Assembly (NCBI RefSeq): GCF_004010195.1
Contig: NC_057719.1
Span: 31,670,883 to 31,734,882, forward strand
Reading direction: 5' to 3'
Source of the DNA: Chiloscyllium plagiosum
Taxonomy: Eukaryota
DNA length: 64,000 nucleotides
A model generated the notes under the pieces. That model did no database searches. It had not been told where the DNA came from and was given only the letters and a program-made list of their open reading frames with translations. Shown piece after piece: positions 511 through 56,612 of the stretch. Within the stretch, counting starts at the first letter, position 1. Each line of letters opens with the position of its first letter. The position numbers and the translations under genes were made by a program.

Positions 511-928
511 ATATCAACTAGCCACGAAACGACACGACCAGCTATCCTTAGTAGCCACTCACGCAGACAACAAGCAACATGAATTCGACTGGGACAACAC
601 TACTATTATAGGGCAAGCCAGACAGAGAACAGCCAGGGAATTCCTAGAGGCATGGCATTCATCCACAAACTCCATCAACAAACACATCGACCTGGACCCA
701 ATATACCAACCACTACAGCGGACAGCTGAAACTGACAACCGGAAGCGGCAGGGACAGACCACTATAAACACCGGAGGAAACATCAAAGAAGCGCTTCGCA
801 GGAGGCTCCCAAGCACTGATGATGTCGCCTAGCCAGGGGACGAAACGTTTGCAACAAAAACTTCCAGCTCGGCGAACAGAACCACAACAACGAGCACTCG
901 AGCTACAAATCTTCGCACAAACTTTGAG
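511..928 (+). mobile_element. Penelope-like element (family B-related) 3' end: GIY-YIG C-terminal region, hammerhead and tail
   Basis: Translates QLATKRHDQLSLVATHADNKQHEFDWDNTTIIGQARQRTAREFLEAWHSSTNSINKHIDLDPIY, homologous to the GIY-YIG ORF at 1832-2401; followed by a hammerhead core. Confidence 0.85.
813..852 (+). ncRNA. Minimal type I hammerhead ribozyme (PLE family B)
   Basis: GCA-CTGATGA-T-GTCGCCT AGCC AGGGGAC-GAAA-CGTT-TGC: catalytic core, stem II hairpin, palindromic ACGT stem III, GCA/TGC stem I. Confidence 0.75.
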
Positions 929-1002
929 CCTTATAGAGCCTCACAGGTACATTTCAGCTTTTATATTCAAGTCCTCTGAAATTAAATGCCATCATTGCAT
1001 TT

Positions 1003-1342
1003 GAGATTAGATTTAGATTACTAAGATTAGATTACTTACAATGTGGAAACAGGCCCTTCGGCCCAACAAGCCCACACCGACCCCGCCGAAGCGCAACTCA
1101 CCCAGACCCATTCCCCTACATTTCACCCCTTCACCTACCGCTACGGGCAATTTAGCATGGCCAATTCACCTAACCTGCACATTTTTGGACTGTGGGAGGA
1201 AACCGGAGCACCCAGAGGAAACCCACGCAGACACGGGGAGAATGTGCAAACTCCACACAGTCATTCACCTGAGGGGGGAATTGAACCCGGGTCTCTGGTG
1301 CTGTGAGGCAACAGTGCTAACCACTGTACCACCGTGCCGCCC
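1003..1342 (-). mobile_element. HE1-type tRNA-derived V-SINE
   Basis: Minus-strand head GGGCGGCACGGTGGTACAGTGGTTAGC (A box) ... GGGTTCAATTCC (B box), CR1-like 3' tail and (AATCT)n repeat. Confidence 0.9.
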
Positions 1343-1550
1343 ATTTGCTTTCCTTTACTACAGGCTCAACCTGCACGTTTACTTTGAGAGAACCCTGGAC
1401 TAGAACTCCCAAGACTAGAACTTCAGACTTCTAAATTTTCTCCCTATTTGGAAAATAGTCTATGCCTCCTTTCTTCCTAACAAAGTGCATGACCTCGCAC
1501 TTTCCTGTATTGTACTCCAGCTGTCACTCCGTTACCCACTCTCCTAACCT

Positions 1551-3699
1551 AGGTAGACAGGCAGGAGGCTGGAAGAAAACAGCAAGCCAGGCAGTATCAT
1601 GAGGTGGAGGAGTTGACGTTTGGGGTTTAACCCTTTAGGACTGGGGGTGGGTGTAGGGGGAACTGCAGATAAAGGGGGTGGCAGTGGTAAATCTAGTAGG
1701 TGGAAGGGAGCCACCTACTGGATGTAGGTTTGCTTGCTTAGCTGGAAGGTTCATGATCAGATGTTTCATAACCATACTAGGTTACATCTTCAGTGAGCCT
1801 CCGGACGAAGCATTGCTAATGATTCCTGCTTTCAGTTTATATGTTTGGGTTTCTTTGGGTTGGTGATGTTATTTCCTGTGTTGATGTAATTTCCTGTTCT
1901 TTTTCTCAGTAGGTGGTAAATCGGGTCCAAGTTAATGTGTTTGTTAATAGAGTTCTGGTTGCAATGCCATGCTTCTAGGGATTCTCGTGCGTGTGTCTGT
2001 TTGACGTGTCCTAGGATGGATGTGTTGTCCCAGTTGAAGTGGTGTCCTTCCTCACCTGTACGTAAGGATATTAGTAAGAGAGGGTCATGTCGTTTTGTGG
2101 CTAGCTGATGTTCGTGTATCCTGGTGGCTAGTTTTCTGCCTGTTTGTCCAATGTGGTGTTTGTTACAGTCCTTGCACAGTATTTTGTAAATGACATTAGT
2201 TTTGCTTGTTATCTGTATAGTGTCTTTCAAGTTCATTAGCTGCTGTTTTAGTGTGTTGGTTGGTTTGTGGGCTACCATGATGCCAAGGCATCTGAGTAGT
2301 CTGGCAGTCCAGACAAACCAACGGAACACACACAGGATTTCCGATATCAGGGTTCTTAGCAGAGACAGTAATACAGAGACTTGAACAAATAGCTCTGCCA
2401 ACCATCCAACCCAACTTTGGGTCCGCTACGTGGGTGACACCTTTGTCATCACTAAACAAAACAAATTAGAGGAAACCTTCATGACCATCAATAATACCCT
2501 TAGCTGGTATAAAATTCACTAAAGAGGACAGCAACAACAAACTGCCATTCCTAGATGTCACAGTACAGCAAACAGCCAATGGGGAACTTGAAACCAGCAT
2601 CCACAGGAAAACAACACATACGGACCAAATATTGAACTACAGAAGCAATCATCCCAACATCCACAAATGAAGCCGCATCAAAACATTATTTCAACGAGCC
2701 ACCACACACTGCAGCACAGAGGAGCTACGCAGAGCAGAAAGAGATCACCTATACAGTGTATTCAAAAAGGATGGGTAACCAACGAACACAATCTGCAGAT
2801 TTCTCTGCAACAAACCCAAAACACATCCAGAAACCCTAGCCACTCTCCCTTACATCAAAGACATCTCTGAAATGACAGCCAGACTACTCGGACCCCTTGA
2901 CATCATGGTAGCCCACAAACCCACCAACACACTAAAACAGCAGCTAATGAACTTGAAAGACCCTATACAGAAAACAAGCAAAACTAATGTCATTTGCAAA
3001 ATACCTTGCAAGAACTGTAACAAACATTACATTGGACAAACAGGCAGAAAACTAGGCACCAAGACATACATGAATATCAACTACCCACAAAATGACATGA
3101 CCCTCTCTTACTAATATCCTTAAATACAGGTGAGGAAGGACACCACTTTGACTGGGACAACACATCCATCCTAGGACAAGCCAAACAGACACGCACGAGA
3201 ATTCCTAGAATCGTGGCATTCCAACCGGAACTCTAACAACAAACACATTGACTTGGACCCGATTTACCATCCTCCTGAGAAAAAGAACAGGAAATGACGT
3301 TACCACAGGAAATGACGTCACCAACCCAAAGAAAGCAGGAATCATCAGCAAGACTTCATCTGCAGGCTCACTGATGTTACCCAGTATGTTGACAAAACAT
3401 CTGAACATGAACCTTCCAGCTCTGCGAGCAAACCTACATCCAGAACCTCAACTTGAGCTACAAATTTTCTCAAAACTTGCACAGCCACCTACTGGATTCA
3501 TTCCTCCCATTGACCAACCTCCCATTGCCTATCATTACCTATCCCCACTTCACCGCCCTGCTCCCACCACCCCCTTTATCTGCAGCTTACCCTACACCCA
3601 CGTCCAGGCCTGAAGAAAGATTACCGAAACGTTGATTTCTCCAGCCTTCTGCCTGTCTAGTTTGGATTCCAGTATCTGTAGGTTTTTTTTTGTGTTTCG
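1551..3699. mobile_element. Inverted-repeat PLE terminal element (family A-related), split by a second PLE
   Basis: Arms at about 1552-1690 and 3545-3660 are reverse complements; degenerate hammerhead cctgaagaaagattaccgaaacgttg near 3610-3635; 12-bp direct repeat at 1539-1550 and 3700-3711. Confidence 0.75.
1720..3482. mobile_element. Penelope-like retroelement (family B) with inverted 3' duplication; RT and GIY-YIG pseudogene
   Basis: Plus strand LWVRYVGDTFVI (YVDD-like) ... IKFTKE...LPFLDVTV...RKTTHTDQILNYRSNHP, and NVICKIPCKNCNKHYIGQTGRKL; inverted copy at about 1720-2345; 15-bp direct repeat agccacctactggat at 1709-1723 and 3483-3497. Confidence 0.9.
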
Positions 3700-4491
3700 C
3701 TCTCCTAACCTGTCCAAATCCATCTGCAGCCTCCCCACTTCCTCAATGCTACCTGTCCTTCTACCTATCTTTATCTCATCTGCAAACATAGCCAGAATGC
3801 TCTCAGTTTCTTCATCTACATCATTAATGTATAAAATGAAAACTTGTGGTCCCAAAACTGATTCTTACGGAACATCACTTGTCATCAGCTGCCATCCTTT
3901 TATTCCCATTCTGTGCTTTCTGCCAGACAGCCAAGCATCTTGCCTCTGACACCTTGGGGCCCATTTCTTACTCAGTACCCTCTTGTGCGGCACCTTGTCA
4001 AAGGCCTTCTTGAAGTCAAGGTAGATAACATACATTGGCTGTCCTTGATCTAACCTGCTTGTTATTTCCTCAAAGAACTCTAGCAGATTTGTCAGGCAAT
4101 ACCTCCCCTTGGTGAATCCATGCTAACTTTGTCCTGTTTTACCATACACTTCCAAGTATTCAGAAATCTCATCCTTCACAATGGATTCCAGGATCCACAA
4201 CAGAGGTTAAGCTAATTGGTCCATAATTTTCTATCCTTTTCTTTACTCCCTTTTTAAACAGGGGTGTCACATTTGTGATTTTTCAGTTTTGGGATCATCC
4301 CTGGGAATTGGGAATTCATTTTACTAGTGATGTCATAGAATGGGAATTACTTGAATTATCAGTTTGTTTTGGAAGTTCTTGACAAACTAGTTGCTTAACT
4401 TTATGAATAAAGAGAAATCTTTTGAGTTTTTAAAAATAGATTCCTGCATTTTCTCACTAAACTGCATGATTTTGTTTTCCTCTCTTTTCAG

Positions 4492-4629
4492 TGGGTGTAG
4501 ATTGTTGAAACCAGACATTTTGGTTGGCTTTGCAGAGTTGGCATTTCTAAAGGAAATCGTAATTTCAAACAATCCACATTTAACTGATGTAATACTGAAG
4601 CAGTTTCGAACTTTAACTGACAACAGAGT
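4492..4629 (+). CDS. Internal coding exon of a leucine-rich-repeat protein (F-box/LRR, AMN1/cysteine-containing LRR type; FBXL13-like character)
   Basis: Strong acceptor ttttgttttcctctcttttcag, donor gtatgt, 138 nt phase 2-2, open frame GCRLLKPDILVGFAELAFLKEIVISNNPHLTDVILKQFRTLTDNR matching the LxxLxLxxNxxLTD pattern; unique, non-repeat context. Confidence 0.7.
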
Positions 4630-5284
4630 GTATGTCACACAGAAGAACAAGAGAAATCACGATAGATGCGATTGTTATTTTGTTTTTGGTCTGTGAGTGG
4701 ACAAAGCAAAATGTTTCATGCGTGATTAAGGTATAAGGTTGACTGAGAACTGAAGAAATGTGCTCATGACACAGATGGACTGGATTCACAACTATCATGT
4801 TAAACGTCTGGCAAGCGGAAATCCATGAAGTCAAATGACAAGCTTATTGATATGTGCATACCAAGCATTTTAATTTAAAATTGTCAATTGTCATAATAAC
4901 AAAAGTCATTTATAGTTTGGTAAAACATTTATTCAAGTTTATTATTGTGTTTGTTTATTATTCTATATTACACATGTGTATGACCACCAGGGGGATCTCT
5001 TGCACAAGTTTCACATCATTGTGATTTTAACCCTTGAAGAACTACACCTTTTAATATACCTTTCATTATAGAGACATATTCTCAGGTTTCCAAAATTGTT
5101 TTCCGTCTTTGCCAGGGAATATTTGTTTGTCACAAGTAGGATTGATAAAGCTATATGGAGAATCTTAGCAAAATCTTCAGATTTTTTTTTATAAGAAAGA
5201 AGATAATAATGTTCTTCTGAAAGAGACTTGTTTCAGTTGAATACAAGATGGCCATAAATCTCTCAATGGGAATTTTATTCTCTA

Positions 5285-5498
5285 CAGTCTATTCTAATAT
5301 AACATGATAGTTCTGTTCCTGTGCGATCCCACGTTATAAGAAAATCACATACCAACACCATTTAAACCAATGGGACCGGAATCGCATTAGTCAATACAGG
5401 TAAGGAAAGTTCATGTTTTATAAATAATGGCCTAAACTCTTCAATCACATTATAGTCAATTCATGTTGAAGAAACATGCATTATAGCAGAACTGACTG
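5285..5498. mobile_element. Tc1/mariner (Tigger/pogo-like) MITE
   Basis: TA|CAGTCTATTCTAATATAA ... TTATAGCAGAACTGACTG|TA: imperfect TIRs beginning CAGT with TA target duplication. Confidence 0.7.
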
Positions 5499-5544
5499 TA
5501 ATAATTTTAATAGTAAAATTAGCAGTAATATGCAATACGATAAT

Positions 5545-5700
5545 CATAGTCATACAACATGGAACTCGACCCTTCAGTCCAACCAGTCCACACCAACCAT
5601 GTTCCTAAATTAAACTAGCTTCATTTGCCTGTGCTTGGCTCATCTCCCTCAAAATCTTTCCTATTTGTGCGCTTATTCAAATTTTAAGCATTATAATTGT
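5545..5700 (-). mobile_element. CR1 3' tail fragment
   Basis: Reverse complement of ggactgaagggtc...catgttgtatgactatga tail. Confidence 0.7.
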
Positions 5701-7530: not shown

Positions 7531-7645
7531 GGAAAGTGAGGACTATAGATGCTGGAGATCACAGTTGAAGAGTGTGGCGCTGGAAAAGCACAGCCAGTCA
7601 GGCAGCATCTGAGGAGCAGGAGAATCGACATTTCGAGCATAAGCT
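7531..7645 (-). mobile_element. PLE family A terminal fragment (tail plus partial hammerhead)
   Basis: gaaagtgaggactatagatgctggagatc...gagaatcgacatttcgagcataagc matches 46706-46820. Confidence 0.75.
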
Positions 7646-8873: not shown

Positions 8874-8879
8874 AAAAAA

Positions 8880-10352: not shown

Positions 10353-10404
10353 CGTAAGTGGGTTAGAACAGAACCTCAAACCAAAGATAACCTTTTAAGA
10401 TAAT

Positions 10405-10608
10405 GTTAAAAATCACACAGCACCAGGTTATAGTCCAACAGGTTTAATTGGAAGCACTAGCTTTTAGAGCACTGCTCCTTCAGGTAGACCTGATGAAGGA
10501 GCAGCGCTCCGAAAGCTAGTGCTTCCAATTAAACCTGTTGGACTATAACATGGTGTTGTGTGATTTCTACCTTTTTACACCTCAGTCCAACACCGGCATC
10601 TCCAAATC
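10405..10608. mobile_element. Palindromic PLE mini-element (family D) with hammerhead
   Basis: About 80-bp near-perfect inverted arms centred near 10486, extra tail of about 38 nt on the right arm; flanks ttaagataatgt / ttaagaccatgt (10/12 duplication). Confidence 0.85.
10487..10521 (+). ncRNA. Minimal hammerhead ribozyme (PLE family D)
   Basis: AC-CTGATGA-A-GGAGC AGC GCTCC-GAAA-GCTA-GT: intact core, 5-bp stem II, palindromic AGCT stem III, CUA cleavage triplet. Confidence 0.8.
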
Positions 10609-14809: not shown

Positions 14810-15272
14810 TAACTTGAGAGGGTGAAGAAAAGACTTACAAGGATGTTGCCAGGACTGGAGGGTTTGAGCTATAGGCAGAGGCTCAATAGGTTTGGGCTTT
14901 TATCTCTGGAGTGTCGGAAGCCAAGGGGTAACCTTAGAGAGGTTTATAGAATCATTTGGGGCATGGGTAGGGTGAATAGCCAAGTTCTTTTTCTGAGGTT
15001 GGAAGATTCCAAAACTAAAGAGCATATTTTTAAGGTGAGAGGAGAAAGGTTTAAAAAGGTCCTGAGGTGTGGCTTTTTCACACAGAGGATTGTGTGTGTA
15101 TGGAATGAGCTGCCGGAGGAAATGGTAGAGGGGACTCTATTTACAACATGTGGATGGGTATATGAATAGAAAACGTTTAGAGAGATATGGGCCAAATGCT
15201 GGCAAATGGGATGAGGTCAGATTGGGATGTTTGGTCAGAGCAGACAAGTTGGACCGAAGGGTCTGTATGACT
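14810..15272 (+). mobile_element. CR1 (HER1-like) 3' fragment
   Basis: RLTRMLPGLEGLSYRQRLNRFGLLSLE...WNELPEE and 3' tail. Confidence 0.9.
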
Positions 15273-15384
15273 CTACCACTCCTGAGTAAAGCAATAATGT
15301 GCTCACTTATGCCCAGTTTGGGTTCCACTAGGGTCATTCAGCTAATTTTATTATAGTCCTAGTTGAAAATCTCAGAAAAGCCAA

Positions 15385-18362
15385 ATTCCAGGGAAAGTGA
15401 CTGCCCTTGACATCAATGTGATGTTGGATTGAATATGGCAGTAAGGAGCCCTAGCAAAGCAGAAGGAAGTAGCAAATGGGGAATTTGCTGAGTGGAGTCA
15501 TATTGAGCATAAAAGAAGTTGGTTGTTGGAGGTTGATCATCATTGTCCCAGAACATCAGTGCAGCCATTCCTCAAGATAGTGTTCTCGGCCTAATCATTT
15601 TCAGCTGCATCACTAATGGTCTTCCCTGTATTCATTAAGTCAGAAGTGAGGATGTTCATTGATAATTGATAATGTGCAGCACTATTCGCAACTCCTCAGA
15701 CATGGATGCAGTCAATATCCATATGCTGCAATACCTGGACAAAGTACATGTTTTGGCTGATATATAGTAAATAATATTTGTGCCACACACATGCCGTGCA
15801 ATGAACCTCTTCAACCAGAGAGAATCTAACTATTGTTCTTTGATTTTAATGGTATAATCATTGAATTCCCATTCCCAATATCCTGGAGATTACAGTTGAC
15901 AGAATTGGACTAGCCTTTATACAGAGTGCCTTCAATAGCAGGTTAGAGGCTAGGAATTTTGCAGTGAGCAACTCAGCTCCTGATTTCCAAACCCTGCCTA
16001 ACATCCACAAGGCACAAGTCAGGAGTACAAAGCATATTCTCTCATTGCTTGGATGATTGCACCTCCAAGAACACTCAAGAATCTTGACACCATCCAGGCA
16101 AAAGTAAGCTCTTGATTGACACCCTATCCATTACCTTCAGTTTAACTCGCTTCACCACCGATGCACAGTAGCAGCAAGGCAGACAATCAACGTGATCTAC
16201 AAAACAATCTACATGGCTAGTATATGAAACCATTAATATTAGAAATGATAGTAAAAATTTCTTCCAATACATAAGATACAAACGAGGGGCAAAAATAGAA
16301 ATTGGGCCACTCCAAATTGATGCAGGAAGGCTAGCGATGGGAAGTAAGGAAATAGCTATAGAACTTAATAAACACTTTGTGTCAGTCTTCACAGTGGAAG
16401 ACATGAGTAATATCCCAATAATTAAGGAGAGTCAGGAGGCAGAGTTGAGTATGGTAGCCATTACAAAAGAGAAAGTGCTAGCAAAGCTAAAAGGTCCAAA
16501 TATTGATACATCTCCTGGCACCGATGGGCTACACCCTAGAGTTCTAAGGGAGGTGGCTGAGTAAATAGCGGAGATATTGGTTGTGATCTTTCAAAAATCA
16601 CTGGAGTCAGGGAAAGTCCCAGATGGTTGGAAAATCGCTGTTGTAACCCCCTTGTTCAAGAAAGGATCAAGACAAAAGATGGAAAATTATAGGCCGATTA
16701 GCCTAACCTCGGTTGTTGGTAAAATTATAGAATCCATCATTAAGGATGAGATTTCTAAATCCTTGGAAGTGCAGGGTCGAATTAGAACAAGTCAGCATGG
16801 ATTTAGTAACGGGAGGTCATGCCTGACAAATCTGTTAGAATTCTTTGAAGAGGTAACAAGTAGGTTAGAACAGGGAAACCCAGTGGATGTTATCTACCTA
16901 GACTTCCAAAAGGTCTTTGATAAGGTGCCTCATGGGAGACTGCTGAATAAGGTGAGGGCCCATGGTGTTCAAGGTGAGCTACTGGCATAGATTGAGGATT
17001 GGCTGTTTGACAGGAGGCAGAGAGTTGGGATAAAAGGTTCTTTTTCAGAATGGCAGCTAATGACAAGTGGTGTTCCGCAGGGTTCAGTGTTAGGCCACAG
17101 CTGTTCAATTTATACATTATTGATCTGGATGAAGAGACTGGGGACATCTTGGCGAAGTTCGCTGATGATACGAAGTTAGGTGGACATGCAGGTAGTTCTG
17201 AGGAGGTGGGGAGACTGCAGAAAGATTTAGATGATTTAGGAGAGTGGTCCAGGAAATGGCTGATGAAATTCAATATGAGCAAATGCGAGGTCTTGCATTT
17301 TGGAAAAAAGAATACAAGCATGGACTATTTTCTAAATGTTGAGAAAATTCATGAAGCCAAAGTACAAAGGGATCTGGGAGTGCTAGTACAGGATTCTCTA
17401 AAGGTTGTTTTGCAGTTTGAGTCCATGGTTAAGAAAGCAAATGTATTGTTGTCATTTATCTCAAGAGGGTTGGAATATAAAAGCAGTGATGTGCTACTGA
17501 GACTTTATAAAGTTCTGGTCAGGCCCCATTTAGAATACTGTGTCCAATTTTGGACCCCACACCTCAGAAAGGACGTATTGGCACTGGAGCGTGGTAGGCC
17601 TGGAATGGTAGGCCGAACATACGAGGATTTTGGGATTGTATTCATTAGAGATTAGAAGGTTGAGGGGAGATCTAATAGAAACTTATAAGAGATTGTATGG
17701 CTTAGAAAGGGTGGACGCTAGGAATTTGTTTCCATTAACCAGGAAGACTAGAACTCATGGCCACAGCCTTAGAATTAGAGGGGGTCAGTTTAGAATGGAA
17801 TTGAGGAGACATTTCTTCAGCCAGAGAGTGGTGGGCCTGTAGAATTCATTGCCACGGAGCACAGTGGAGGCTGGGATGTTAAATGTCTTCAAGGCAGAGA
17901 TTGATAGATTCTTCGCCCTTAATTCCTTGCGAGACCATGGGGAGAGTGCGGGTAAGTGGAGTTGAAATACCCATCAGCCATGATTGAATGGCGGAGTGGA
18001 CTTGATGGGCCGAATGACCTTACTTCCGCTCCTATGTCTTATGGTCTTTTGATAGCCTGCAGTAATTCAAAAGGTGTCTTCAACAAAACCCTCCATATCC
18101 ATGGCACCTATCACCTACAAGGACATAGACAGCAGATACATAGGAACAACACCATTTGCAATTTCCCCTCCAAGGCACACTATCCTGACTTGAAACTATT
18201 TTTGCATTCCTTCACACTTGCTGATTCAAGAGGATGCGCTTAATTCCTAAGGACAGCAACAGTGCAAGAAGTCACCTCACCGGCATTTTCTTGAGGACAA
18301 TTATGGATTGGCATTAAATGCTGACCAACTCAGCAATGCATATTCCCATGTATAAATAAAGA
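15385..18362 (+). mobile_element. Old CR1/L2-group LINE RT pseudogene and 3' UTR, split by a younger CR1
   Basis: Remnants of ALDI..., PQDSVLGLIIFSC, SEVRMFIDN (GVPQGSVLGP / FADD equivalents) at 15400-15670; 3' part resumes at about 18055 and matches 40222-40715. Confidence 0.7.
16215..18047 (+). mobile_element. CR1 LINE ORF2 pseudogene (RT domain) with 3' tail
   Basis: NYRPISLTSVVGK, QHGF, YLDFQKVFDKVPH, KFADDTKLGG, LVRPHLEYCVQFW; few stops or frameshifts; tail tatgtcttatggtctt. Confidence 0.95.
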
Positions 18363-30424: not shown

Positions 30425-32225
30425 TTTGAGTCATACAGCACAGAAACAGAACCTTTGGTCGAACGTGTCCTTGCCGACCAAGTTTCTCAATTAAACAAGT
30501 CTCACATACCTGAGTTTAGCCCATATCCCTCTACACCTTTCCTATTCATGTACCTGTCCAAATATTTTTTAAATGTTGTAACGGTACCTGCATCTACCAC
30601 TTCCTCTGGCAGTTCATTCCACATATGAACCACCCTCTGTGTGAAAAGGTTGCCCCTCAGGTCCCTTTTAAATCTTTCTCCTCTCACCTTAAATTTTATG
30701 TCATCTAGTTTTGAACTCACCCACCCTAGGGAAAAGACCTTTGCTGTTCATCTTATGATTCCATAAACGTCAATAAGATCTCATCTCAATCTCCTTTGCT
30801 CCAGTGAAAAAAAGTCCCAGCCAATCCAGCCTGTCCTTTTAACTCAAAGCCTCCAGTCCTGGCAACTTCCTGGTAAATCTTTTCTGAACCCTCTCCAATT
30901 TAATAATATCCTTCCAATAGCAAGATGATCAGAACTGAATAAAGTACTCCAAAGGTGTCCTCACCAAAATCTTGTATAACCTCAACATGACATACTAACA
31001 TATATACTTAAGGACAAAAACAGAAATTGCTGGAAAAGCTCAGCAGGTCTGGCAGTATCTGTGGGGAGAAGCCAGAGAAGCCTGTGTTGGGAAACCCTTC
31101 CTTAGAACTGTCCACAGAAGCTGCCAGACCTGCTGATTTGGAGGTCACCTGATGAAGGAGCAGTGCTCTGAAAGCTTCCAATTAAACCTGTTGGACTATA
31201 ACCTGGTGATTTTTAACTTTGTAGACCTGCTGAGCAATTCCTGTTTTTGGTTCAGATTTATAACACCTGCAGTTCTTTCGGTTCCTATACTCACTGAAAA
31301 GCATGCTAAAAGCCTTCTCAGCCACCCTGTCATTCTGTGATGCAACTTCCAAAGAGCTATTTACCTCAACGTCTAGGTCTCTCTGTTCGAAAACACTTCC
31401 CAGGGCCCTAACATTAACTGTATAACCTGCCCTTGGATTAATGAAATACCTCATATTAATCCAAATTAAATTCCAACTGCCACTCTTCAGACTATTGACC
31501 CAACTGACCAAAATCCCTTTGTAATCTAAGATGACCTTCCTCACTGTCTATTATACCACCAATTTTGACGTCATCTGCAAACTTACTAACCATGCCTCCT
31601 AAATTCTCATCCAAAGACAAAAAAAAGTGAACCTAACACTGACACTTGTGGAATACCACTGGTCGCAGGCCTCCAATCACCATTGAAAAACCACCATTGA
31701 ACACCTACCTGTGTCTCCCACCATCAAGCTAAGTTTGTATCCAATTGACAAGCTCACCCTGATCTTATGTGATCTAACTTTAGTAATCAGACTACTATGT
31801 GGAACCTTGTCAAAGACTTTACTACAATAAATGTAGACAACATCTACAGCTCTGTCCTCATCCATCTTTTTGGTTATGTCCTCAAAAAACTCAATCAAGT
31901 TTGTGAGACACAATTTCCCACTCACAAAGCCATGCTGACTATCCCTAATAATTCCTTGCCTCTTCAAATACATGTAAATCCTATCTCTCAGAATTCCCTC
32001 CAACAATGTACTCACCTCTGATGTCAGACTCACCGGTCTACAGTTCCCAGAATTCTCCTTACAGCCTTTCTTAAGTAAAGGCACAACATTAGCCACCCTC
32101 CAGTACTCATAAGTAGCTGTCAATGATATAAATATCTCTGCTTGGGGCCCTGCAATTTCTTCAATAGCTTCCCACAATATTCCAGAATACACTTGATTTG
32201 GGTCCTGGAGATTTATCCACTTTTG
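30425..32225 (-). mobile_element. CR1 LINE RT pseudogene with 3' tail, interrupted at 31012-31280
   Basis: WRVANVVPLLKKGCKENSGNCRPVSLTS...DSQHGFVSGKLCLTNLIEFFE...KVFDKVPH; WNELPEEVVDAG. Confidence 0.9.
31012..31280. mobile_element. PLE family C palindrome containing a nested family D hammerhead fragment
   Basis: Inverted arms ctcagcaggtctggcag / ctgccagacctgctga; insert cacCTGATGAaggagcagtgctctGAAAgct flanked by agacctgctga at 31126-31136 and 31223-31233. Confidence 0.75.
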
Positions 32226-35700: not shown

Positions 35701-36950
35701 TGTTTCCATTTATGGGGTTTGGCTGGCCACCAATATCCATTACAAACCCATTGACTTCCACAATTACCTTGACTACATATCCTCACACTTTGCATCCTGT
35801 AAAGACTCTATTCAATCCTCCGTCACATTTATTCTGATGATGCCAACTTCCTAAGTGGTGTTCAAAACTGTCCACCTTTTTCCTCAACTGAGGATTCCCC
35901 ACTATTGTGATCAACAGCGTCCTTAGCCGTGTTTGACCTACTTTCCACCCTCTGCCCTCACCCTTTCCCTCCCACAACACTGATAGGGTCCCTGGTCCTC
36001 GTTTTCTGACTCACCAGACTCCAGAGAGATATCACGAATAGACACATATTCCCTTCCCCTCCTTTGTCAGAATTCCTTAGAGGCCATTCCCTCTGGAACA
36101 CACTGTTCGCACTTCCTCCACCCCCATACCCAAAAACACCCGTGGCACTCTCCAATGCAGCTGAAGAAGGTGTAACTCCTGCCCATTTATCTCCTCTCTC
36201 TGCACTATTCAAGGTCCTAGACACATCTTCCAGGTGAAGCAGCGATTTACCTGCCCTTCATTCAATCTATCTACTGTATTTGTTGTTCACAACATGGTCT
36301 TCTCTACACTGGAGAAATGAAATGCAGACTGGATGAGCACTTTGCAGAACACCAAAATTTGTCCACAAAAACGATTTTGAGCTTCCATGAGCCCCAACCA
36401 ACATTTCTGTCGGAGACCTGCTGTGGTGTTCCAGTGATCCTCAGCATGAGCTCCAAGAAAAACATCTCATTTTCTGCTTGGGGACCCTGCAGTGTCTAGG
36501 ACTCAAAATCAAGTTCAATAACTTTAGATCCTTCCATTTTTTTTTAACCCACTCCCATACCTGTAGGTTGCTTTTCGCAGAGTCACCCATTCTTTAGTAC
36601 TCTTAGACCCATTATCACATTATATAGGTTGTTTTCGGTACATCTCACCCATTTTCTGCTCTTATTATCACTTCTTCAGCTTTTATTCTGCTGTGGCCTG
36701 TTAGCCATAATCTTCTTGCTTACCTATCTCATTCAAATCCCTCTTGCTGTCCAGGCTTCATCTCCACCAATCCAGTCACCTCTTCCCTCAGGCCCCTCCT
36801 AACACAGCTACAGACAATTCTGATGGTGAGTTAGAATCAAAACATTAACTTTGCTTTCTTCCCACAGATACCAGACCTGCTGTGTTTCTCCAGCAATTTC
36901 TGTTTCTCTTTCAGATCTCAGACATCTGCAATTCTTTGTTTTATTTTACA
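32735..36950. mobile_element. Penelope-like retroelement (family C) with inverted 3' duplication; RT and GIY-YIG pseudogene
   Basis: Plus 35400-35850 GVAMDSGMGSSYACLFVEYEE...FHPTLTFTWSISDSSLPFL...HYKP; GLLYTGEMKCRLDEHFAEH at about 36290-36350; inverted copy on minus (32735-33453 and 34874-35370: CSQCGLLYTGETKHRLGD). Confidence 0.85.
33454..34873 (+). mobile_element. Tx1/L1-clade LINE 3' fragment (zf-RVT region and 3' UTR)
   Basis: DLGWRVLQAA...NCLFC...ETVD, then FSPTLLIFGH...LLQGLAKLAINRS...ELFRERW; A-rich 3' UTR; aggtattttg duplicated at 33444-33453 and 34874-34883. Confidence 0.8.
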
Positions 36951-37582
36951 GTATTTAAAGAGCCTGACATCCCACTTCAATTGAGTTCCACAAGTTGATT
37001 AGAAGCAGAGATCACCAAATTAATGTAACGTTATGCACAACCAACAACTCTCTTCCTGATGTGCTCCCTCCCGAGGTGAGGATTTCTGCCAGGAACATGA
37101 ATTTAGAAATTACCTTTAATATCACCTTGCCTCCTTTACATCCTCTCTGGAACTCTGGTATACTCCACTACAATGGAGGGGTGGCAGTGGTTGGGAGGGT
37201 GTGGGCACAGCAAAACTGGGCTTGAGTTTTGGTCAGCTGGCTGCCTGATAGAAACACAATCATAGAAACATTTCTAAACAAACTCAAGAGAATTCTGTGA
37301 AACATCAATCTTGCTCTGGTCTTCTGTTGACCCATAATGGATGCACATCTTGCCTTTTGAAATTATAAAAGGACATTGATAGATTAAGTGAGTGGGCGAA
37401 ACTGTGAAAGACAGAGTGGGGAAGGTGAGAACATCCCTTGAGGAACTGAGGAAGATTTTTAAAGTGCGAATTTTGATGGAGCAAAGAGATTTAGGAGCCT
37501 ATGCACTATACATAAATCACTAAAAGATAGTGGATTGCTGCAAAAGGTAATTTAAAAGGCTGATTAAATGTGAGGCTGAAAA

Positions 37583-39130
37583 ACTGAGGACTGCAGATGC
37601 TGGAGATCAGAGTCAGAAAATGTGCTGCTCGCAAAACATAGCAGGTCAAGCAGCATCTGAGAAGCAGGAGAATTGACGTTTTGGGCATAAGCCCTTCATC
37701 AGGAATATGGGTGGGTGGGGGTGGGGGTGGTGATGAGGTAGGTGGGAAGATGATATGGAGATGCAGGTGAGGGGTGATGGTGGTAGGACGGAGAGAAGGG
37801 TGAAGTGGACAGGTGGGAAGGTAGATGGACAGCTAGGACAGTTCAAGAGGGTGGTGCCAAGTTGGAAGGTTGGATCTGGTTTGAGGTAGGGAGAGGGGAG
37901 ATAAGAAAACTCATGAAATTGCTGTTGATGCTGTGTGGTTGGAGGGTCCCAAGGCAGAAGCTGAGGTGTTCTTTCTCCAGTGATTGGGTGGTTTGGATTT
38001 GGCAGTGGAGGATGCCCAAGACTTGCATGTCCTTGGTGGAGTGGGAGGGGGTGTTGAAGTGGTCAGCCACAGGGCATTGTGGTTATTTGGTGCATGTGTC
38101 CCAGATATGTTCCCTGAAACGTTCCACAAGTTGGCGTCCTGTCTCCCTAATGTGGAGGAGACCAAAGGAAGGTGTCGGGAGTGGAGGGTGGGTTGGTGTG
38201 GGGCATGGACCTAATGAGGGAATTGTAGAGGGAATGGTTTGCAGAATGCAGATAGGGGTGGGGAGGGAAATATATTTCTGGTGTAGGGTCTGATTGTAGG
38301 TGTCGGAAATGGCAGAGGATGAAGCTCTGTATCCAGAGATTTGTAGGGTAGAAGGTGAGGACGGGGGTGGGGCAGTTCTTGTGCAGTTGGAAGGGTAAGG
38401 TTCAGGAAATGGAAGCGATGCGCTGGAGAGCATTGTTGACCACATGGGAGGGGAAATTGTGGTCCTTGAAACGGGAGGCCATCTGGAATGTCCTGGAGTG
38501 GATTTGTTGCTCTTGGGAGCAGATATGGCAGAGGCAGATGTATTGGGAGTAAGGGGTTATGTTTTTACAGGACGGGGTTTGGGAGGAAACTGTGGTAACT
38601 GTGGGAGTCCGTGGGTTTGAAGTAGATATGTGTGTTGAGTTGGTTGCCAGAGGTAGAGATGGAAGGGTTCAAGAAGGGGAGGGAGATGTCCGAGATGATT
38701 TAGGTGAGGTAATTTGATGAACTGTTCAACCTCCTCATGGAAGCATGAGGTGGTGCCGGTGCAGTCATCAATGTAGTGGAGGAAAAGGTGGGTGATGGTG
38801 CCAGTGTAGCTGCAGAAGATGGACTGTTCCGCATATCAGATGAAGAGGTAGGCAAAACTGGGGCCCATGCGGGTGCCCATGGCGACCCCTTTGGTCTGAA
38901 TGAAGTAGGAGGATTCAAAGGAGAAGTTATTGAGGATAAGGACCAGTTCCACCAATTGAATGAGTGTGTCGGTGGAAGGATACTGTTTGGGTCAGTGGGA
39001 GAGAAAGAAACGGAAGGCTTGGAGGCCTTCACCATAGATGGAAGTGTGGAGGAACTGGATGTCCATGGTGAAGATAAGGCGTTGGGGGCCAGGGAACCGA
39101 AAATCATGGAAGAGGTGGAGGTGGAGGATT
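37583..39130 (-). mobile_element. Penelope-like retroelement (family A), deleted RT plus GIY-YIG plus hammerhead terminus
   Basis: Minus GVAMGTRMGPS...FLHYIDDC (38761-38779), GLLHIRETGRQLVERFREH, ADHFNTPSHS; terminus cCTGATGAagggcttatgcccaAAAcgtc and tail matching the hairpin mini-elements. Confidence 0.9.
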
Positions 39131-39709: not shown

Positions 39710-40211
39710 TGCCATGATGTTTAGATTGATTCTAATCTAAAATGTGAGATAATGGAGTTTTACATAAATTCATGCAGTTTTTGAGCTCAGAGTTCTACAT
39801 GAATGTAGACATGAATGTAGGCATAGACGTTCACCATTGTTAACAGCTAACCTGAGAATGCAACTTTTTAAAAAAAAGTTTTGTGGTTTACACATGAAAG
39901 AAGTGAAACTATCACTGTATTCTAACAGATGAAAGGCTTAACAGACAATCAATTTTTCAATGTATAATTTCAATTACATCACACTGTAAAGTTTTGCTAT
40001 AAATTCTGTGTTAGGATTGAGCCCTCCACTATCATCTGATGAAGGAACGTCGCTCCGAAAGCTAGTGTGCTTCCAATTAAACCTGTTGGACTATAACCTG
40101 GTGTTGTGTGATTTTTAACTTTGTACACCCCAGTCCAACACTGGCATCTCCAAATCATGACTATTCAGTTAAAAATCACACAACACCAGGTTATAGTCCA
40201 ACAGGTTTAAT
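39710..40211 (+). mobile_element. PLE family D terminal repeat with hammerhead (core at about 40036-40064) plus short inverted terminal piece
   Basis: CTGATGAaggaacgtcgctccGAAAgcta; downstream sequence matches 10490-10608; inverted piece at 40169-40211 flanked by the tgactattcag repeat; the 5' boundary is uncertain. Confidence 0.75.
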
Positions 40212-44849: not shown

Positions 44850-45120
44850 AGCTGAAAATGTGTTGCTGGAAAAGCGCAGCAGGTCAGGCAGCATCCAAGG
44901 AGCAGGAAAATCGACGTTTCGGGCATAAGCCCTTCTTCAGGAATGAGGAAAGTGTGTCCAGCAGGCTAAGACTGCTGGACACACTTTCCTCATTCCTGAA
45001 AAAGAACTTATGCCCGAAACGTCGATTCTCCTGCTCCTTGGATGCTGCCTGACCTGCTGCGCTTTTCCAGCAACACATGTTCAGCTCTGATCTCCAGCAT
45101 CTGCAGTCCTCACTTTCTCC
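44850..45120. mobile_element. Palindromic PLE mini-element (family A) with hammerhead on each arm
   Basis: About 115-bp inverted arms around 44968; intact minus-strand core cCTGAAGAagggcttatgcccGAAAcgtc, mutated plus-strand core; cttgttgggctgaag at 44837-44851 and 45120-45134. Confidence 0.9.
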
Positions 45121-46705: not shown

Positions 46706-46930
46706 GGAGAAAGTGAGGACTGCAGATGCTGGAGATCAGAGCTGAAAATGTGTTGCTGGAAAAGCGCAGCAGGTCAGGCAGCATCCAAGGAGCAGGAGAA
46801 TCGACGTTTCGGGCATGAGCCCTTCTTCAGGAAAGAGGAAATGAAGAAGGGCTCATGCCCGAAATGTCGATTCTCCTGCTCCTTGGATGCTGCCTGACCT
46901 GCTGCGCTTTTCCAGCAACACATTTTCAGC
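46706..46930. mobile_element. Palindromic PLE mini-element (family A) with hammerhead
   Basis: About 88-bp near-perfect arms; intact minus-strand core CTGAAGAagggctcatgcccGAAAcgtc; gtcaattaaaactt at 46689-46702 and 46932-46945. Confidence 0.9.
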
Positions 46931-49277: not shown

Positions 49278-49499
49278 ATCAAGATTCGAGTGGTGCTGGA
49301 AAAGCACAGCAGGTCAGGCAGCATCCGAGCAGCAGGAAAATCGACCGTTTGGGCAACAATCCTTCATGAGGGGTTTTTGATTCCTGATGAAGGGTTTTTA
49401 CCCAAAATGTTGATTTTCCTGCTCCTTGACCTGTTGTGCTTTTCCAGCACCACTCTAATCTTGACTCTGCTCTCCAGCATCTGCAATACTCACTTTCAC
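49278..49499. mobile_element. Palindromic PLE mini-element (family A variant)
   Basis: Inverted arms; cCTGATGAagggtttttacccaAAAtgttgatt degenerate core; catccttgatgcaga at 49263-49277 and 49500-49514. Confidence 0.85.
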
Positions 49500-50679
49500 C
49501 ATCCTTGATGCAGAGTAACATTTGTCAAGCTATAGCCTTTGGTGAAAAACTGGTGGACTATTCCAGGAAAAATTAGCCATTGAAACAGACAAAAGTACAA
49601 GCTACATATGCCTCATGCACAGCTAGATGTGGGAAGAAAAATGAAAATGTCTCATACTGCTTCACATAATATGGGTTTGAATCTGTTTATAAATCCACCG
49701 AACTTCAATTTCAATACTATTTTATAAAATTATACAATTAATTGTTGGGGACATGCTCTGTCCATACCTGTGTCTAGGCATATATACAATGTCCTCCTGC
49801 TCAAGACTGCTCCACAATGGCAAAATAGAAGAAAGGCAAATGAAATACATTTCCTCCTAATCAGCTCTATGTTCCTCTTTTTAGTTTCAGATGGGTGCCT
49901 GGGGTATTAATATATTCTAAGCCAAGGTGGCAGTTCACTTTTCAAACATATTTTTGTTGTAGATAAATGTGAAGGTTACAAAACAAAACAAATCTAAATT
50001 GTTCTCTGTAATAACTCAGGAAACTGACTGGAAAGGAATGTAATTTATTGTTGAAAAACAAAATAGGGCCACTACTCTTGGCATACCTAGCTTCATCACA
50101 GCCTGGGACAGGCAGTTCTGCAAACCCTTCCATGGGTCTTCTTCATAAAGGGCTCAGGTGTTGAGTTCCAGCTGGGCAGGTTACCAAGGAAACCCATACT
50201 CAACAAGCCCCACAAAGAGATTAATTAGTGATTTGCCATGGACCTTGCACAGTCTCCAAGTGTTTTGTTGAAAAAAAACACACAGAAATGGTCTCATTAT
50301 TCAGGAAGGAATAATAACTGGGATAATCGTGTTTCTTCTACATCAGTGCTATGACCCATGACGAAAACTAGTGAGGAGGAGAAACACAGCGGATATATCC
50401 TTTTTGCAACATAAACAGAATACATGGCATATTCAGGTAAGGTTTTAAAGATCTCTCATCATTTACATTTATAACTTGTTCTGAGGAATAAGTTACTCAA
50501 CATCAAGATTTGCAGATGACAGCAAAGTAGGGATGTAGCTAAATGAAGGAAGAACATAACACAATAAATAAAAAGAAACTTTACAGAATGGTGACAAATA
50601 AACTTGAACACAAATAAGTGTGAGGTGACACACTTTGTCAGAAAAAACAGAAAGTTATCACCACTTTAAATAAAAGACA

Positions 50680-51489: not shown

Positions 51490-51815
51490 CCAGACAAACA
51501 GAGACTTGTGTGAGAATTCCTAGAAGCATGACATTCCAACTGCAACTCTATTAACAAACACGTTGACTTGGATTCCATATACCATCCCCTGAGAAAAAGA
51601 ACAGGAAATGGCATCACCACAGAAAATGACATCACCGACCTAAGGAAACCTAAACACATAAATAAAAAGTGGGCCATACCACCAGTGCTTCATCCGGAGA
51701 CTCACTGATAATGTTACCTAGTATGATGACAAAACGTCTGAGACCGAACCTTCCAGCTCAGTGAGCAAAGCTACATCCAGAATCTCAACCTGAGCTACAA
51801 ATCTTCTCAAAACTC
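51490..51815 (+). mobile_element. PLE family B 3' end with degenerate hammerhead
   Basis: Matches 3180-3480; ctcaCTGATAAtgttacctagtatgatgacAAAAcgtctgag. Confidence 0.85.
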
Positions 51816-53237: not shown

Positions 53238-53580
53238 TTTTATTCATTCTTGGGATGAGTGTTTCTCTGGCCAGATCAGTATTTATTGCCCAGTCCTAAT
53301 TGCCATGAGCAGTTGAGAGTCAGCCACATTGCTGTGGGTCTGGAGTCACGTGTAGGCTAGACCAGGTAAGGATGGCAGTTTCCATCCCAAACAGACATAG
53401 GTGAACCAGATGGGTTTTCCCAACAATCAACAATGGTTTTACAATCATTGTTAGACCCTTAACTCCAGATTTTTTAAAATTAAACTCAGATTGCACCATC
53501 TGCCATGATGGGATTTGAACCCTGCCCCCCACCTGGGTCTCTGGATTAATAGTCTAGCAATAATATCACTAGGCCATTAC
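53238..53580 (-). mobile_element. tRNA-derived SINE sharing its 3' tail with the old LINE family
   Basis: Minus head tggcctagtgatattattgctagact...ggttcaaatccc; tail ggcaattaggactgggcaataaat...gaatgaataaaa as at 42325-42392. Confidence 0.75.
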
Positions 53581-54057
53581 TTCCCACTCTATATGTTTTT
53601 AACATCCCTGAACTGAACATATGTTGTGCACTCATATGCTAAGTTCCCAGTTGCTAAGTTTGAACTATGAAAACATATTTCCTAGATGTTCTTGACGACA
53701 AGCTCATAAGTAAATGGGAATATTCTTAATTGTGTTGTGGTTTTAAACATCGATTTTAGGGATACTGTTACTTAATATTTTAATGGATGCAAACTATATA
53801 CAGTTACAGGGAGGTTTGAAATCACTTGGTGAAAAATGTGCACACACGTAGCCGATGTGATTATGACTCGGAAATTACTTTGTTGCTCGAAAGCATTGAG
53901 CTTCATTAAATCAAACTTGAGATTAAATGTTTTATACAACACTGAGTGAGAATTGGATAGCTAATTAAGGAATGAGCATGAAATTTATATCAGGAGCTGA
54001 AGTTAAGGAACTTATTCTCTATTTTCAGCTTTTTTCACGTTATCAATATTGTTACAT

Positions 54058-54395
54058 TTTATTTGTTGTGGATGTCGTTGGCTACATCTACATTTTATGC
54101 CCAGCTTGAATTGCACAGAGGGTGATTAAGAGTCATCCACATTGCTGTGTGTCTGGAGCCATATACAGGCCAGACCAGGTAAGACTTGTATATTTGCTTC
54201 CCTGAAGAACATGAGTAAACCAGGTGTGTTTTTATAACAGTGGCTACGTGATTGTCATTCGGCCAATTTTTCAATCCAGATTTTATTGAATTCCAATTTT
54301 ACCATCTGCCGTTATGAAATTCAAATCCATGTCTCTGGAACATTAGCCTAAATTTTTTAATTGCAAGTCCAGTGACATTATCATTACCTCACCAT
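54058..54395 (-). mobile_element. Second, more diverged copy of the 53238-53580 SINE
   Basis: ccacattgctgtgtgtctggag...agaccaggtaag...ccatctgcc. Confidence 0.7.
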
Positions 54396-54577
54396 CTTGT
54401 CTACTCTATTAATTCAGCTAAGGTTTCTGGTTATAAAGAAATGGATACAGTTACCAATTTTTGCCATTATGTACAAACCTGATTCAGTATAGCTCAACTA
54501 ATGGCACAAGAAATTTCATTAATTTTGTAACAACAATATGGATCAAACCAATTTGAAAGCTAAACTTGGGGCTGAAT

Positions 54578-55172
54578 TTGAGGTCATGTTGCGGCTGTAC
54601 AGGACATTGGTTAGGCCAGTGTTGGAATATTGTGTGCAATTCTGGTCTCCTTCCTATCGGAAAGATATTGTGAAACTTGAAAGGATTCAAAAAAGACTTA
54701 CAAGGATGTTGCCAGGGTTGGAGGATTTGAGCTATAAGGAGAGGCTGAACAGACTGGGGCTGTTTTCCCTGGAGCGTCGGAGGCTGAGGGGTGACCTTAT
54801 AGAGGTTTACAAAATTATGAGGGGCATGGATAGGGTAAATAGGCAAAGTCTTTTCCCTGGTGTCGGGGAGTCCAGAACTAGAGGGCACAGGTTTAGGGTG
54901 AGAGGGGGAAGATATAACAGAGACCTAAGGGGCAACCTTTTCACGCAGAGGGTGGTATGTGTATGGAATGAGCTGCCAGAGGAAGTGGTGGAGGCTGGTA
55001 CAATTGCAACATTTAAGATGCTTTTGGATGGGTATATGAATAGGAAGGGTTTGGAGGGATATGGGCCGGGTGCCGGTAGGTGGGACTAGATTGGGTTGGG
55101 ATATCTGGCCAGCATGGACGGGTTAGACCAAAGGGTCTGTTTCCATGCTGTACATCTCTATGACTATGACTC
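54578..55172 (+). mobile_element. Young CR1 (HER1-like) 3' fragment with uninterrupted ORF2 C-terminus
   Basis: EVMLRLYRTLVRPVLEYCVQFWSPSYRKD...GAGRWD open to the natural stop at 55089; canonical tail. Confidence 0.95.
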
Positions 55173-56439
55173 TAAAAGTCGCCAAAATGTCAATTTCAGT
55201 GGCTTCGTGGTGTGTTGCTCTCTGTGAATGAGTTATGTCATGCAATTCTCCACAGCTCACCTCATAATGTTTGCTCCACATCTCTATGATACTGTGATCA
55301 TGCTACCTTGCGTTCACCAATGACCAAAATGCTCTCCTATGCCAGGACCTGCTGGGATATTCACTGTTGGTGTATAATGTAAAACCCATCTGTCCACCAG
55401 GCCAATCACAGACAGGTATAAATAGCCTTTCACAGTACACGAGGCAGAAAACAAGAAAAGTTTCTGAGGCCAGATAGATGTCATGGTTGATACTTCATTG
55501 CAAATAGATGCATGATGTGTCTGATTACTGACATTGTAATTGTAGCTACAACAATCAAGCTTCAAATACTCCCTGTTCTTTATGCTATATCATGTTTGAA
55601 TCATATCTGAGGAAGTTCTACTCTTTCCCTCATGCCTGGCATAATATAACATCTCTTCATTGTTCAAGACTGATGGTGGCTATCCCTGTAATTGCCTTGG
55701 AAACGCAGCCTTGATTGCTTTGTAACCAGACCCTTGACTGATCTCTGTGCAGCTCCCAACCAATTTACCACTAATTTCCTGTCTGGTTGCAGTGAACTTA
55801 ATGGTTGTGGGCATTAATTATATGGCCCCCACATCCTGAATGCTCCCTACACTACTGGCCATAGTGCCTCGTGGCAGAATAGGAATTTGCATATTAAAAA
55901 GTTGAAATTAGGTACTAGTAAGACTAAAGTGCATGCCCAAAGACCTCTCACCCTCTTGTGGCAGAGTGATAGTGTTCTTAGTCCTAAACTAGGAGGTCCA
56001 TGTTCAAGTCCCTTCTGTGCGATAACATTGTTGCAAGGTTGATGAGTTAAAAATAGGCCTCTCGCATCTCACTGTTCAAACTTTGTGAGGAAAATTAGGC
56101 TTGTTTTGTCTCAATGTTGAGAATCTCAATTTTTCAATATTGCTACATTTTTCCAACTGAATCACCATTGCCGATGCCATTCAGAGGCTGGGAAAGTCAG
56201 CCCTTGCAATTTGTACTTCCTGCACTACCCCTTCACTGTGCTGAATTTCCACGTTATAAGCTATTTTGTTTCATTTTAGGATTTGCAAGCATGAACTGAA
56301 GGTGCTTAAATTTATTTTTCCCCAAAAATATTACATCGAGACAGCATTTACTTGTCATCCCATATTAGATTAAATACCACTTGTGTAGGAATTGTCACTT
56401 GGCTGACACATTAAATCAGTACTGAAGAAGGGCTGAAAC

Positions 56440-56612
56440 CAAAACAGAAATTGCAGGATAATCTCATCAGGTCTGTCAGAACTGAAGAAAGGTCACTGGA
56501 CTCAAAACGTTGGCTTAGATTTCTCTTCACAGATGCTGCCAGACCCGCTGAGTTTCTCCAGCAGCTTCTGTTTTAGTTTCATATTTCCAGCATCCACAGT
56601 TCTTTATTTTCT
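56440..56612. mobile_element. Palindromic PLE mini-element (family C) with degenerate hammerhead
   Basis: aaaacagaaattgc...caggtctg / cagacccgctgag...gcttctgtttt arms; aCTGAAGAaaggtcactggactcAAAAcgtt. Confidence 0.7.

What the first reader, a model, noticed from the sequence alone, without database searches (positions are those of the whole stretch)
813..56515. Four unrelated terminal-repeat families share a minimal hammerhead core with covarying stems
Seen: the core CTGA(T/A)GA...GAAA occurs with different but base-paired stem II sequences (A: GGGC/GCCC; B: GTC.CCT/AGG.GAC; C: GGTC/GACT; D: GGAGC/GCTCC). Stem III is a loop-less palindrome that switches between ACGT and AGCT, and the short stem I also covaries (GCA/TGC, CAC/GTG). 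Known: such minimal PLE hammerheads cleave mainly as dimers. The covariation within one 64-kb window is internal evidence that the fold was under selection in the parent elements.
Basis: partly seen in the sequence, partly recalled or inferred. Interest (0 to 1): 0.7.

Follow-up and report, generated by a model that had tools for sequence, protein, structure and literature searches.

The report
Penelope retroelement minimal hammerhead ribozymes
These are real copies of the small hammerhead RNA motif, predicted to cut itself, that Penelope-like jumping genes are known since 2014 to carry in their end repeats; its stems were likely kept by selection in the parent elements while the inserted copies decay, so the finding is mostly ordinary.

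Summary
Observation largely confirmed. Six window sites have exact core boxes, stem II and a palindromic stem III, against 0 in each of 20 shuffles. A random 1.34 Mb sample of the genome gave 98 against 0-1, about 250,000 genome-wide. All four families follow GIY-YIG fragments of Penelope-like elements.

Corrections: A and C are homologous, so not four unrelated families. No window copy of C keeps the exact core.

Covariation is real and best seen within lineages: three different pairs at one stem I position in B; G-C, G-U and A-U in C stem II; a U3-A8 core in a young C subfamily. Inserted copies decay without protection of the core.

Extras: short copies start just upstream of the core, not at the predicted cut. 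In family D, public RNA reads show poly(A) about 30 nt past the cut, which suggests an LTR-like layout.

The kind is published (PMC4209133), and this scan noted it many times on other DNA, extras included. Cleavage was not tested. Low interest.

The parts
512..923 (+). 3' end of a young family B (B1) Penelope-like element: GIY-YIG C-terminus 512-721, TATAAA 763-768, hammerhead, tail ending near 923
   Evidence: near-identical copies elsewhere
813..852 (+). Intact B1 minimal hammerhead: stem I GCA/TGC, core 816-822, stem II with one internal mismatch, GAAA 842-845, predicted cut 849/850
1718..2425 (-). Family B (B2) copy with GIY-YIG fragment and decayed hammerhead starting at 1793, tail-less
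2938..3477 (+). Family B (B2) copy, decayed hammerhead near 3371, tail-bearing; head-to-head partner of the 1718-2425 copy
3606..3645 (+).
7532..7644 (-). Family A stub truncated inside stem II
10402..10608 (.). Family D fold-back insertion; + arm has an intact core at 10490, stem II GGAGC/GCTCC, AGCT, predicted cut 10518/10519
31146..31227 (+). Family D stub, exact core at 31149, deletion removes the 3' strand of stem I; lies inside a family C fold-back (31014-31278)
36165..36950 (+). Old family C element end: Cys-rich linker and GIY-YIG remnant 36165-36349, 3' UTR, decayed hammerhead near 36819, tail
37578..38693 (-). Old family A element end with RT-thumb and GIY-YIG remnants; hammerhead at 37702 with GAAA decayed to AAAA
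39831..40159 (+). Family D pLTR: TATAAAT 39998-40004, inferred start 40028, core 40036 (one stem II mismatch), predicted cut 40064/40065, ATTAAA 40076-40081, poly(A) added after 40093-40096 in reads of the family, tail ending at ATG 40157-40159
44850..45120 (.). Young family A fold-back insertion; - arm has an intact hammerhead (44944-44909), + arm is damaged and tail-bearing
46706..46930 (.). Young family A fold-back insertion; - arm has an intact hammerhead (core at 46830) and the tail; a 14-nt flank duplication is visible
49290..49500 (.). Older family A fold-back, both hammerheads decayed
51496..51814 (+). Family B (B2) end, decayed hammerhead at 51705
56433..56605 (.). Family C fold-back; + arm hammerhead 56479-56515 with stem II GGTC/GACT, GAAA decayed to AAAA
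58023..58402 (-). Family A copy with GIY-YIG remnant, 5' half of the hammerhead deleted

Best explanation
The motifs are minimal type I hammerheads in the end repeats (pLTRs) of several Penelope-like retrotransposon lineages; in the active parent elements they likely sat near the 5' end of the transcript and are predicted to cut weakly, as a pair or with the element's protein, while the copies in this window are likely inert relics. Shown: each motif follows a GIY-YIG fragment in the same orientation; copies end at two fixed points (with and without a tail of about 35 nt); many are head-to-head pairs; some carry 10-21 nt target duplications; stems and core are kept between subfamilies. Inferred: transcription starts about 30 nt after a TATA box, 4-8 nt upstream of C3 (families D and C'). 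A unit transcript then carries one hammerhead at each end, and their ACGT or AGCT palindromes pair to form helix III. Cutting both would release a unit-length RNA. Reverse transcription starts inside the pLTR (+80 to +95 or +120 to +124) and often runs off the uncut 5' end, leaving the 130-nt stubs.
For: Enrichment: 98 motifs in 1,343,161 random bases against 0-1 in five shuffles. 82 of 98 have stem I of at least 2 bp although it was not asked for (0 in shuffles). Only C3/G8 of 16 base combinations is clearly enriched. Element link: GIY-YIG followed within 1 kb by the family signature for B (38 of 56 hits), D (13) and A (8) of 23 hits of the D query, and C. RVT_1 E 1.2e-5, below Pfam's cut-off, in a D ORF; one D locus shows pLTR-ORF-pLTR. 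Covariation: B stem I third pair G-C, C-G, T-A; C stem II second pair G-C, G-U, A-U; A against C/E stem II fourth pair C-G, T-A; stem I first pair C-G, T-A; U3-A8 with stem I GCT/AGC in 34 of 36 hits. On 14 hand-picked A/C/E copies 87% of cells pair against 14-49% when slid. Ends. Literature: PMC4209133, PMC11167929, PMC8557442.
Against: No cleavage was tested. No pile-up of copy 5' ends at the predicted cut (A 2 of 157, D 1 of 59), and no pile-up of RNA read starts or ends was listed. The dimer fold is not the predicted minimum-energy state for any of 6 copies, and the monomer fold is for only 1 of 6. Stem I of the main A subfamilies has a mismatch at its third pair. In one search the count of pairs with a double change (5) was reached by 58 of 500 shuffles, and the rows are related and hand-picked. 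Family A has no clear TATA at the expected place, and an extra G at the start shows in D (4 of 6) but not in solo A copies (1 of 10). The transcription start is inferred from DNA ends only.
Confidence: 0.8

Rival explanations
1. The fold is selected but cutting is secondary: the motif is a protein-binding or regulatory structure in the 5' leader, or a switch that decaps the RNA and so limits translation, and the uncut RNA is the template for insertion.
For: Copy 5' ends include the whole motif and not the cut. In PMC11167929 catalytic mutants did not affect insertion in vitro, and no RNA-seq reads began or ended at the cut. In D the motif lies between the inferred start and the ATG.
Against: The catalytic boxes and the 3-8 pair are what is kept, including the coupled U3-A8 change, which fits catalysis. 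This rival differs from the best explanation only in what the cut is for.
Confidence: 0.3
2. The hammerheads are passengers that use the element for their own spread, an option raised in PMC8557442, and give it no benefit.
For: Naiad elements lack canonical hammerheads and still reach high copy numbers (PMC8557442, passages). Stubs far outnumber long copies: 25 of 242 A and 10 of 91 D copies met the test for native upstream sequence.
Against: Stubs lack the upstream TATA region and decay neutrally, so selection must have acted in complete elements. The motif sits at the same place in lineages whose GIY-YIG domains are only about 30% identical.
Confidence: 0.1
3. The match is a product of a loose pattern and of repeat amplification.
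For: The boxes alone are common: 188 observed against 67-91 in shuffles. Shuffles do not model repeats, and copies of one family are not independent.
Against: Families gathered without the motif return it. It recurs in three groups that do not align, with unasked features (stem I, extra base before G10.1, G10.1-C11.1) and compensatory changes.
Confidence: 0.02

Closest known systems
Minimal hammerheads (min-HHR) in pLTRs of metazoan Penelope-like elements, Cervera and De la Pena 2014 (PMC4209133; parts 1-2 of 4 read)
   Same: No helix III loop, palindromic 15.2-16.2, extra base between 9 and 10.1, G10.1-C11.1, short helix I, several covarying consensus families per genome, mostly solo copies, some opposite-strand pairs; a U3-A8 variant is described for Schistosoma.
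   Different: Sharks are not named in the parts read; the estimate here (about 250,000) exceeds the 4,000 and 9,000 given for coelacanth and Xenopus, with a different descriptor; stem II is shorter in A (4 bp).
Poseidon element PAc of Anolis, Frangieh et al. 2024 (PMC11167929; parts 1-2 of 4 read)
   Same: Two internal reverse-transcription starts that define a tail; hammerhead upstream of them; uncut RNA as the main template.
   Different: In PAc the ORF starts at stem II; in family D the ATG lies at the end of the tail, about +120. A poly(A) site next to the hammerhead is not mentioned in the parts read.
Complex insertions of endonuclease-positive PLEs; Neptune and Penelope/Poseidon clades (Craig et al. 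2021, PMC8557442; 12 passages seen)
   Same: 5' truncation, adjacent inverted copy, 30-40 bp tail on one end. A, C and D have a Cys-rich linker before GIY-YIG (the Neptune/Nematis mark given there); B has none.
   Different: Clade names are assigned from that linker and from recall; no tree with named references was built.
Non-LTR retrozymes (bioRxiv 10.64898/2026.07.22.740005; part 1 of 5 and 4 passages seen)
   Same: Type I hammerheads derived from PLE pLTRs; one chondrichthyan genome was positive.
   Different: Retrozymes are head-to-tail tandem repeats; no such array lies in this window.

Membership tests
PLE minimal type I hammerhead | Core boxes CUGANGA, GAAA, UH | tested here: met
   6 window sites; majority of 11 of 14 subfamilies tabulated. 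C' has U3-A8; two old ones read AAAA, likely CpG decay
PLE minimal type I hammerhead | Helix II with G10.1-C11.1 and one unpaired base after A9 | tested here: met
   all 14 subfamily majorities (A in A/C/D, U in B); the parsing pattern assumed this layout, but the unconstrained list shows it too
PLE minimal type I hammerhead | Loop-less palindromic helix III | tested here: met
   ACGT in A, B, C, C'; AGCT in D; one old majority reads CA
PLE minimal type I hammerhead | Short helix I | tested here: met
   82 of 98 motifs have 2 bp or more, 0 in shuffles; third pair mismatched in most A subfamilies
PLE minimal type I hammerhead | Located in the pLTR of an RT plus GIY-YIG element | tested here: met
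   Pfam scores below cut-off, none
PLE minimal type I hammerhead | Self-cleavage as dimer or with protein | not testable with these tools
   folding energies uninformative; no read-end pile-up listed
Canonical type I hammerhead (Rfam models) | Match to an Rfam hammerhead model | tested here: not met
   no hammerhead hit at E up to 1
Non-LTR retrozyme | Head-to-tail tandem units, each with a hammerhead | tested here: not met
   no such array up to period 500 in the window; pairs are head-to-head
Neptune clade (A, C, D) and Penelope/Poseidon clade (B) | Cys-rich linker between RT and endonuclease present or absent | tested here: met
   present in A, C, D, absent in B
Neptune clade (A, C, D) and Penelope/Poseidon clade (B) | RT phylogeny with named references | not tested
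   no reference sequences fetched

The most novel reading that the evidence does not exclude
The pLTR of family D works like a retroviral LTR: TATA at -38, start at -8, poly(A) at +57 to +60, with the hammerhead inside the terminally repeated R segment. Both reverse-transcription starts (about +86 and +120) lie downstream of the poly(A) site, so a long copy ending in pLTR plus tail cannot come from simple copying of a unit mRNA. It needs an RNA circle made by the two hammerheads, a jump of the 130-nt 'strong-stop' DNA from the 5' to the 3' R segment, or read-through from tandem copies. The hundreds of thousands of stubs are strong-stop products that failed to jump.
Probability: 0.35. Interest if true: 0.6.

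Novelty: new member of a known kind. Interest (0 to 1): 0.22.

Why it matters
As stated, it adds shark-type examples to a kind of ribozyme described in 2014, with clean natural compensatory series (including U3-A8) that suit in vitro tests. The value lies in the side results. The role of PLE hammerheads is still called unclear (PMC8557442, passage). A start just upstream of the motif and a used poly(A) site just downstream would give a testable layout for how these elements copy themselves. Inserted D ends may also supply poly(A) sites to host transcripts (inference, not tested).

Tried and rejected
Rfam scan: no hammerhead family. Pfam: GIY-YIG E 0.018 for 1 of 8 window peptides, nothing relevant for 4 peptides, RVT_1 below cut-off. 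No solved relative of the D ORF at E 0.1. A first copy-against-copy mapping of 5' ends was confounded by fold-backs and dropped; replace it. The apparent near-universal extra G came from a query that held that junction; with a query starting inside the core, 5 of 29 distinct copies have G at -5 or -4. Folding energies neither support nor exclude the dimer. No RNA holder on record was listed for the C' stretch; run X22 gave no laid reads. Family A reads show weak strand bias and no poly(A) among the loose ends shown. A peak of 5' ends at the cut, reported by earlier notes for other genomes, was not seen here. No complete element of A, B, C or C' was examined, and only 5 longer D loci. Lunse et al. 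2016 (PMC5785218) is not held; only its title in a reference list was seen. Paper searches with no hit: Penelope + pLTR + transcription start + TATA; Penelope + Neptune + shark + hammerhead ribozyme. Penelope-like + pseudo-LTR + polyadenylation gave one listing, not read. No supplements were opened; the alignments in those of PMC4209133 may include shark motifs.

Full report
Setting. The window is G000:C10:31670883-31734882 in a 3.56 Gb genome and is rich in dispersed repeats. That it is a shark is recalled from the look of the repeats and from earlier scan notes; I did not test it. Positions written +n or -n count from hammerhead base C3.

Is the motif there? One search listed 25 places with the two boxes. 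Six also have stem II, the palindrome and U16.1 (816+, 10490+, 31149+, 40036+, 44940-, 46830-), against 0 in each of 20 shuffles. One search lists 25 homologous positions; most are decayed. I then drew 140 stretches of 10 kb at round coordinates on the large scaffolds (1,343,161 called bases). They hold 98 C3/G8 motifs against 0-1 in five shuffles; 82 have stem I of 2 bp or more, which was not required. The other 15 combinations at positions 3 and 8 gave 0-7 against 0-4. This scales to about 250,000. Shuffles do not model repeats, so these counts show abundance, not independence.

What carries it. GIY-YIG fragments are followed within 1 kb, on the same strand, by the family signature: 38 of 56 hits of the B query; 13 D, 8 A, 1 B and 1 none among 23 hits of the D query. 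One of the 8 is a D-like protein followed by an A insertion. For C, a linker and GIY-YIG remnant at 36165-36349 precedes the pLTR near 36819. A D ORF has RT motifs (RVT_1 E 1.2e-5, below cut-off). Locus L313 shows inverted pLTR, pLTR, ORF, pLTR, with the ATG at the end of the tail. Copies end at two points: A about +80 to +95 or +124 (54 of 144 at +124), D about +72 to +89 or +119/120 (22 of 47). 88 of 197 A and 39 of 73 D copies are arms of head-to-head pairs. Flank duplications of 10 nt or more occur in 19 of 82 solo A copies (0 of 81 mismatched controls) and 3 of 24 D (0 of 23). This is the insertion pattern described in PMC8557442 (passages) and explained by two internal RT starts in PMC11167929.

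How many families? A and C align over 124 nt at 69% (E 3e-9); B and D match neither at E 0.01. A profile built only from sequence downstream of the cut collected 358 hits, 348 used, in 22 clusters; 14 had 5 or more members and 11 of those showed the core in the majority. They include A, C, type E and a subfamily C'. A, C and D have a Cys-rich linker before the endonuclease and B does not, which by PMC8557442 points to Neptune-type against Poseidon-type; no tree was built.

Covariation. In B, the third pair of stem I is G-C, C-G or T-A, and the third pair of stem II is C-G, T-A or T-G (some variants rest on 1-5 copies). In C, the second pair of stem II is G-C, G-U or A-U. Between A and C the fourth pair of stem II and the first pair of stem I swap between C-G and T-A. 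C' is young (98-100% identical copies) and reads U3-A8 with stem I GCT/AGC in 34 of 36 hits (one unrelated row of 37 dropped; the query held that core). The same swap is published for Schistosoma (PMC4209133). On 14 hand-picked A/C/E copies, 87% of cells pair (79% shuffled, 14-49% slid) and 16 cells change on both sides (0 of 500 shuffles). The 5 pairs with a double change are reached by 58 of 500 shuffles, and the rows are related.

Where selection acted. Against their own subfamily majority, 232 copies from 11 subfamilies (D2, B2 and C' left out) differ at non-CpG sites by 5.8% in the core (134 of 2314), 6.9% in the flank (792 of 11484; p 0.056), 8.7% in stem II, 13.6% at N7 and 16.8% in loop II. 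So inserted copies are not protected; stem II is even worse than the flank (p 0.009). The excess at N7 and loop II fits free change there among parent elements. In the window the pairs are head-to-head, so one transcript carries only one sense motif per insertion, likely buried in a long hairpin; the copies are likely inert.

5' ends. Mapped against real long copies, 59 of 157 A copies and 27 of 59 D copies (88% identity or more) start at -15 to -1; 5 and 1 start at -60 to -16; 2 and 1 at the predicted cut. D has TATAAAT at about -38, and 5 of 24 short solo copies start at -8. The base before is G in 4 of 6 where long copies have C; solo A copies show G in 1 of 10. In C', 4 of 29 distinct copies run into native upstream sequence, 3 of them showing TATAAAT about 31 nt before the A at -4; nearly all the rest stop within a few bases of the core. 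A lacks a clear TATA. I read this as run-off at an uncut, capped 5' end; it is inferred from DNA only, and I saw the cap and TATA wording in earlier notes before testing it.

RNA. Raw poly(A) single-cell reads of run X21 (species label coded, about 2% of the run read, reads 85-99% alike) laid on D show about 650 against 45 depth in favour of the element's sense strand upstream of the motif. 369 and 472 reads have A-runs behind 40093 and 40096, 12-15 nt after the hexamer at 40076-40081. The hexamer is AATAAA in 28 and ATTAAA in 23 of 91 D copies (32 not parsed, 8 other), and 0 of 91 have a genomic run of 8 A there. The site is therefore used, but reads may come from host transcripts ending in D copies, and the run may be of a related species. 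A shows no such signal. No pile-up of read starts or ends was listed in either call; this library type would lose a 30-nt cut product.

Mechanism. Most likely (0.8) these are hammerheads selected in active elements, weakly cleaving in pairs or with the element's protein, that can release unit-length RNA, while much insertion uses uncut RNA. PMC4209133 reports no monomer and low dimer cleavage; PMC11167929 reports protein-assisted cleavage not needed for insertion in vitro. D. virilis Penelope has a TATA-less internal promoter (PMC2377424, passages), so the TATA layout here is not general. Nearest-neighbour folding does not favour the dimer but ignores tertiary contacts.

Verdict. A new member of a known kind. 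Earlier scan notes hold the same kind 770 times by words and already mention the start pile-up, the U3-A8 family and the D poly(A) site; they are unchecked and not counted as support. Interest 0.22.

Noticed in passing
L079:1326-1420 and loci L201-L230, L271-L300: Young subfamily C' with a U3-A8 core and stem I AGCT/AGCT; many head-to-head pairs join at that palindrome, suggesting two cDNA ends annealing there.
   Followed up: partly
window 40076-40096: Family D poly(A) signal in two canonical variants with a GU-rich stretch downstream; poly(A) reads seen in run X21.
   Followed up: partly
window 56505-56530 and C-family majorities: In C and C' the stretch after the cut is a pyrimidine run ending in CAG then ATG, like a splice acceptor; the short frame after it is not kept between A subfamilies.
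   Followed up: no
L313 (oriented 2179-5632): Near-complete family D element with 5' and 3' pLTRs, an inverted partner, and a family A fold-back inserted in its ORF with a flank duplication.
   Followed up: partly
window 1554-1681 (-) and 3560-3660 (+): A fifth hammerhead-bearing type (E), homologous to A and C, with stem II GGGT/ACCC in copies elsewhere.
   Followed up: partly
window 31014-31278: A family D stub sits inside a family C fold-back: nested insertion of one pLTR stub in another.
   Followed up: no
window 14811-17870, 54523-57485, 62384-62815: Many fragments of LINE-like RT ORFs and a dispersed 300-nt repeat (1026-1343 and copies); recalled as CR1-type LINE and SINE, not tested.
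   Followed up: no
window about 58514-59013: Assembly gap of 500 N next to a family A copy.
   Followed up: no
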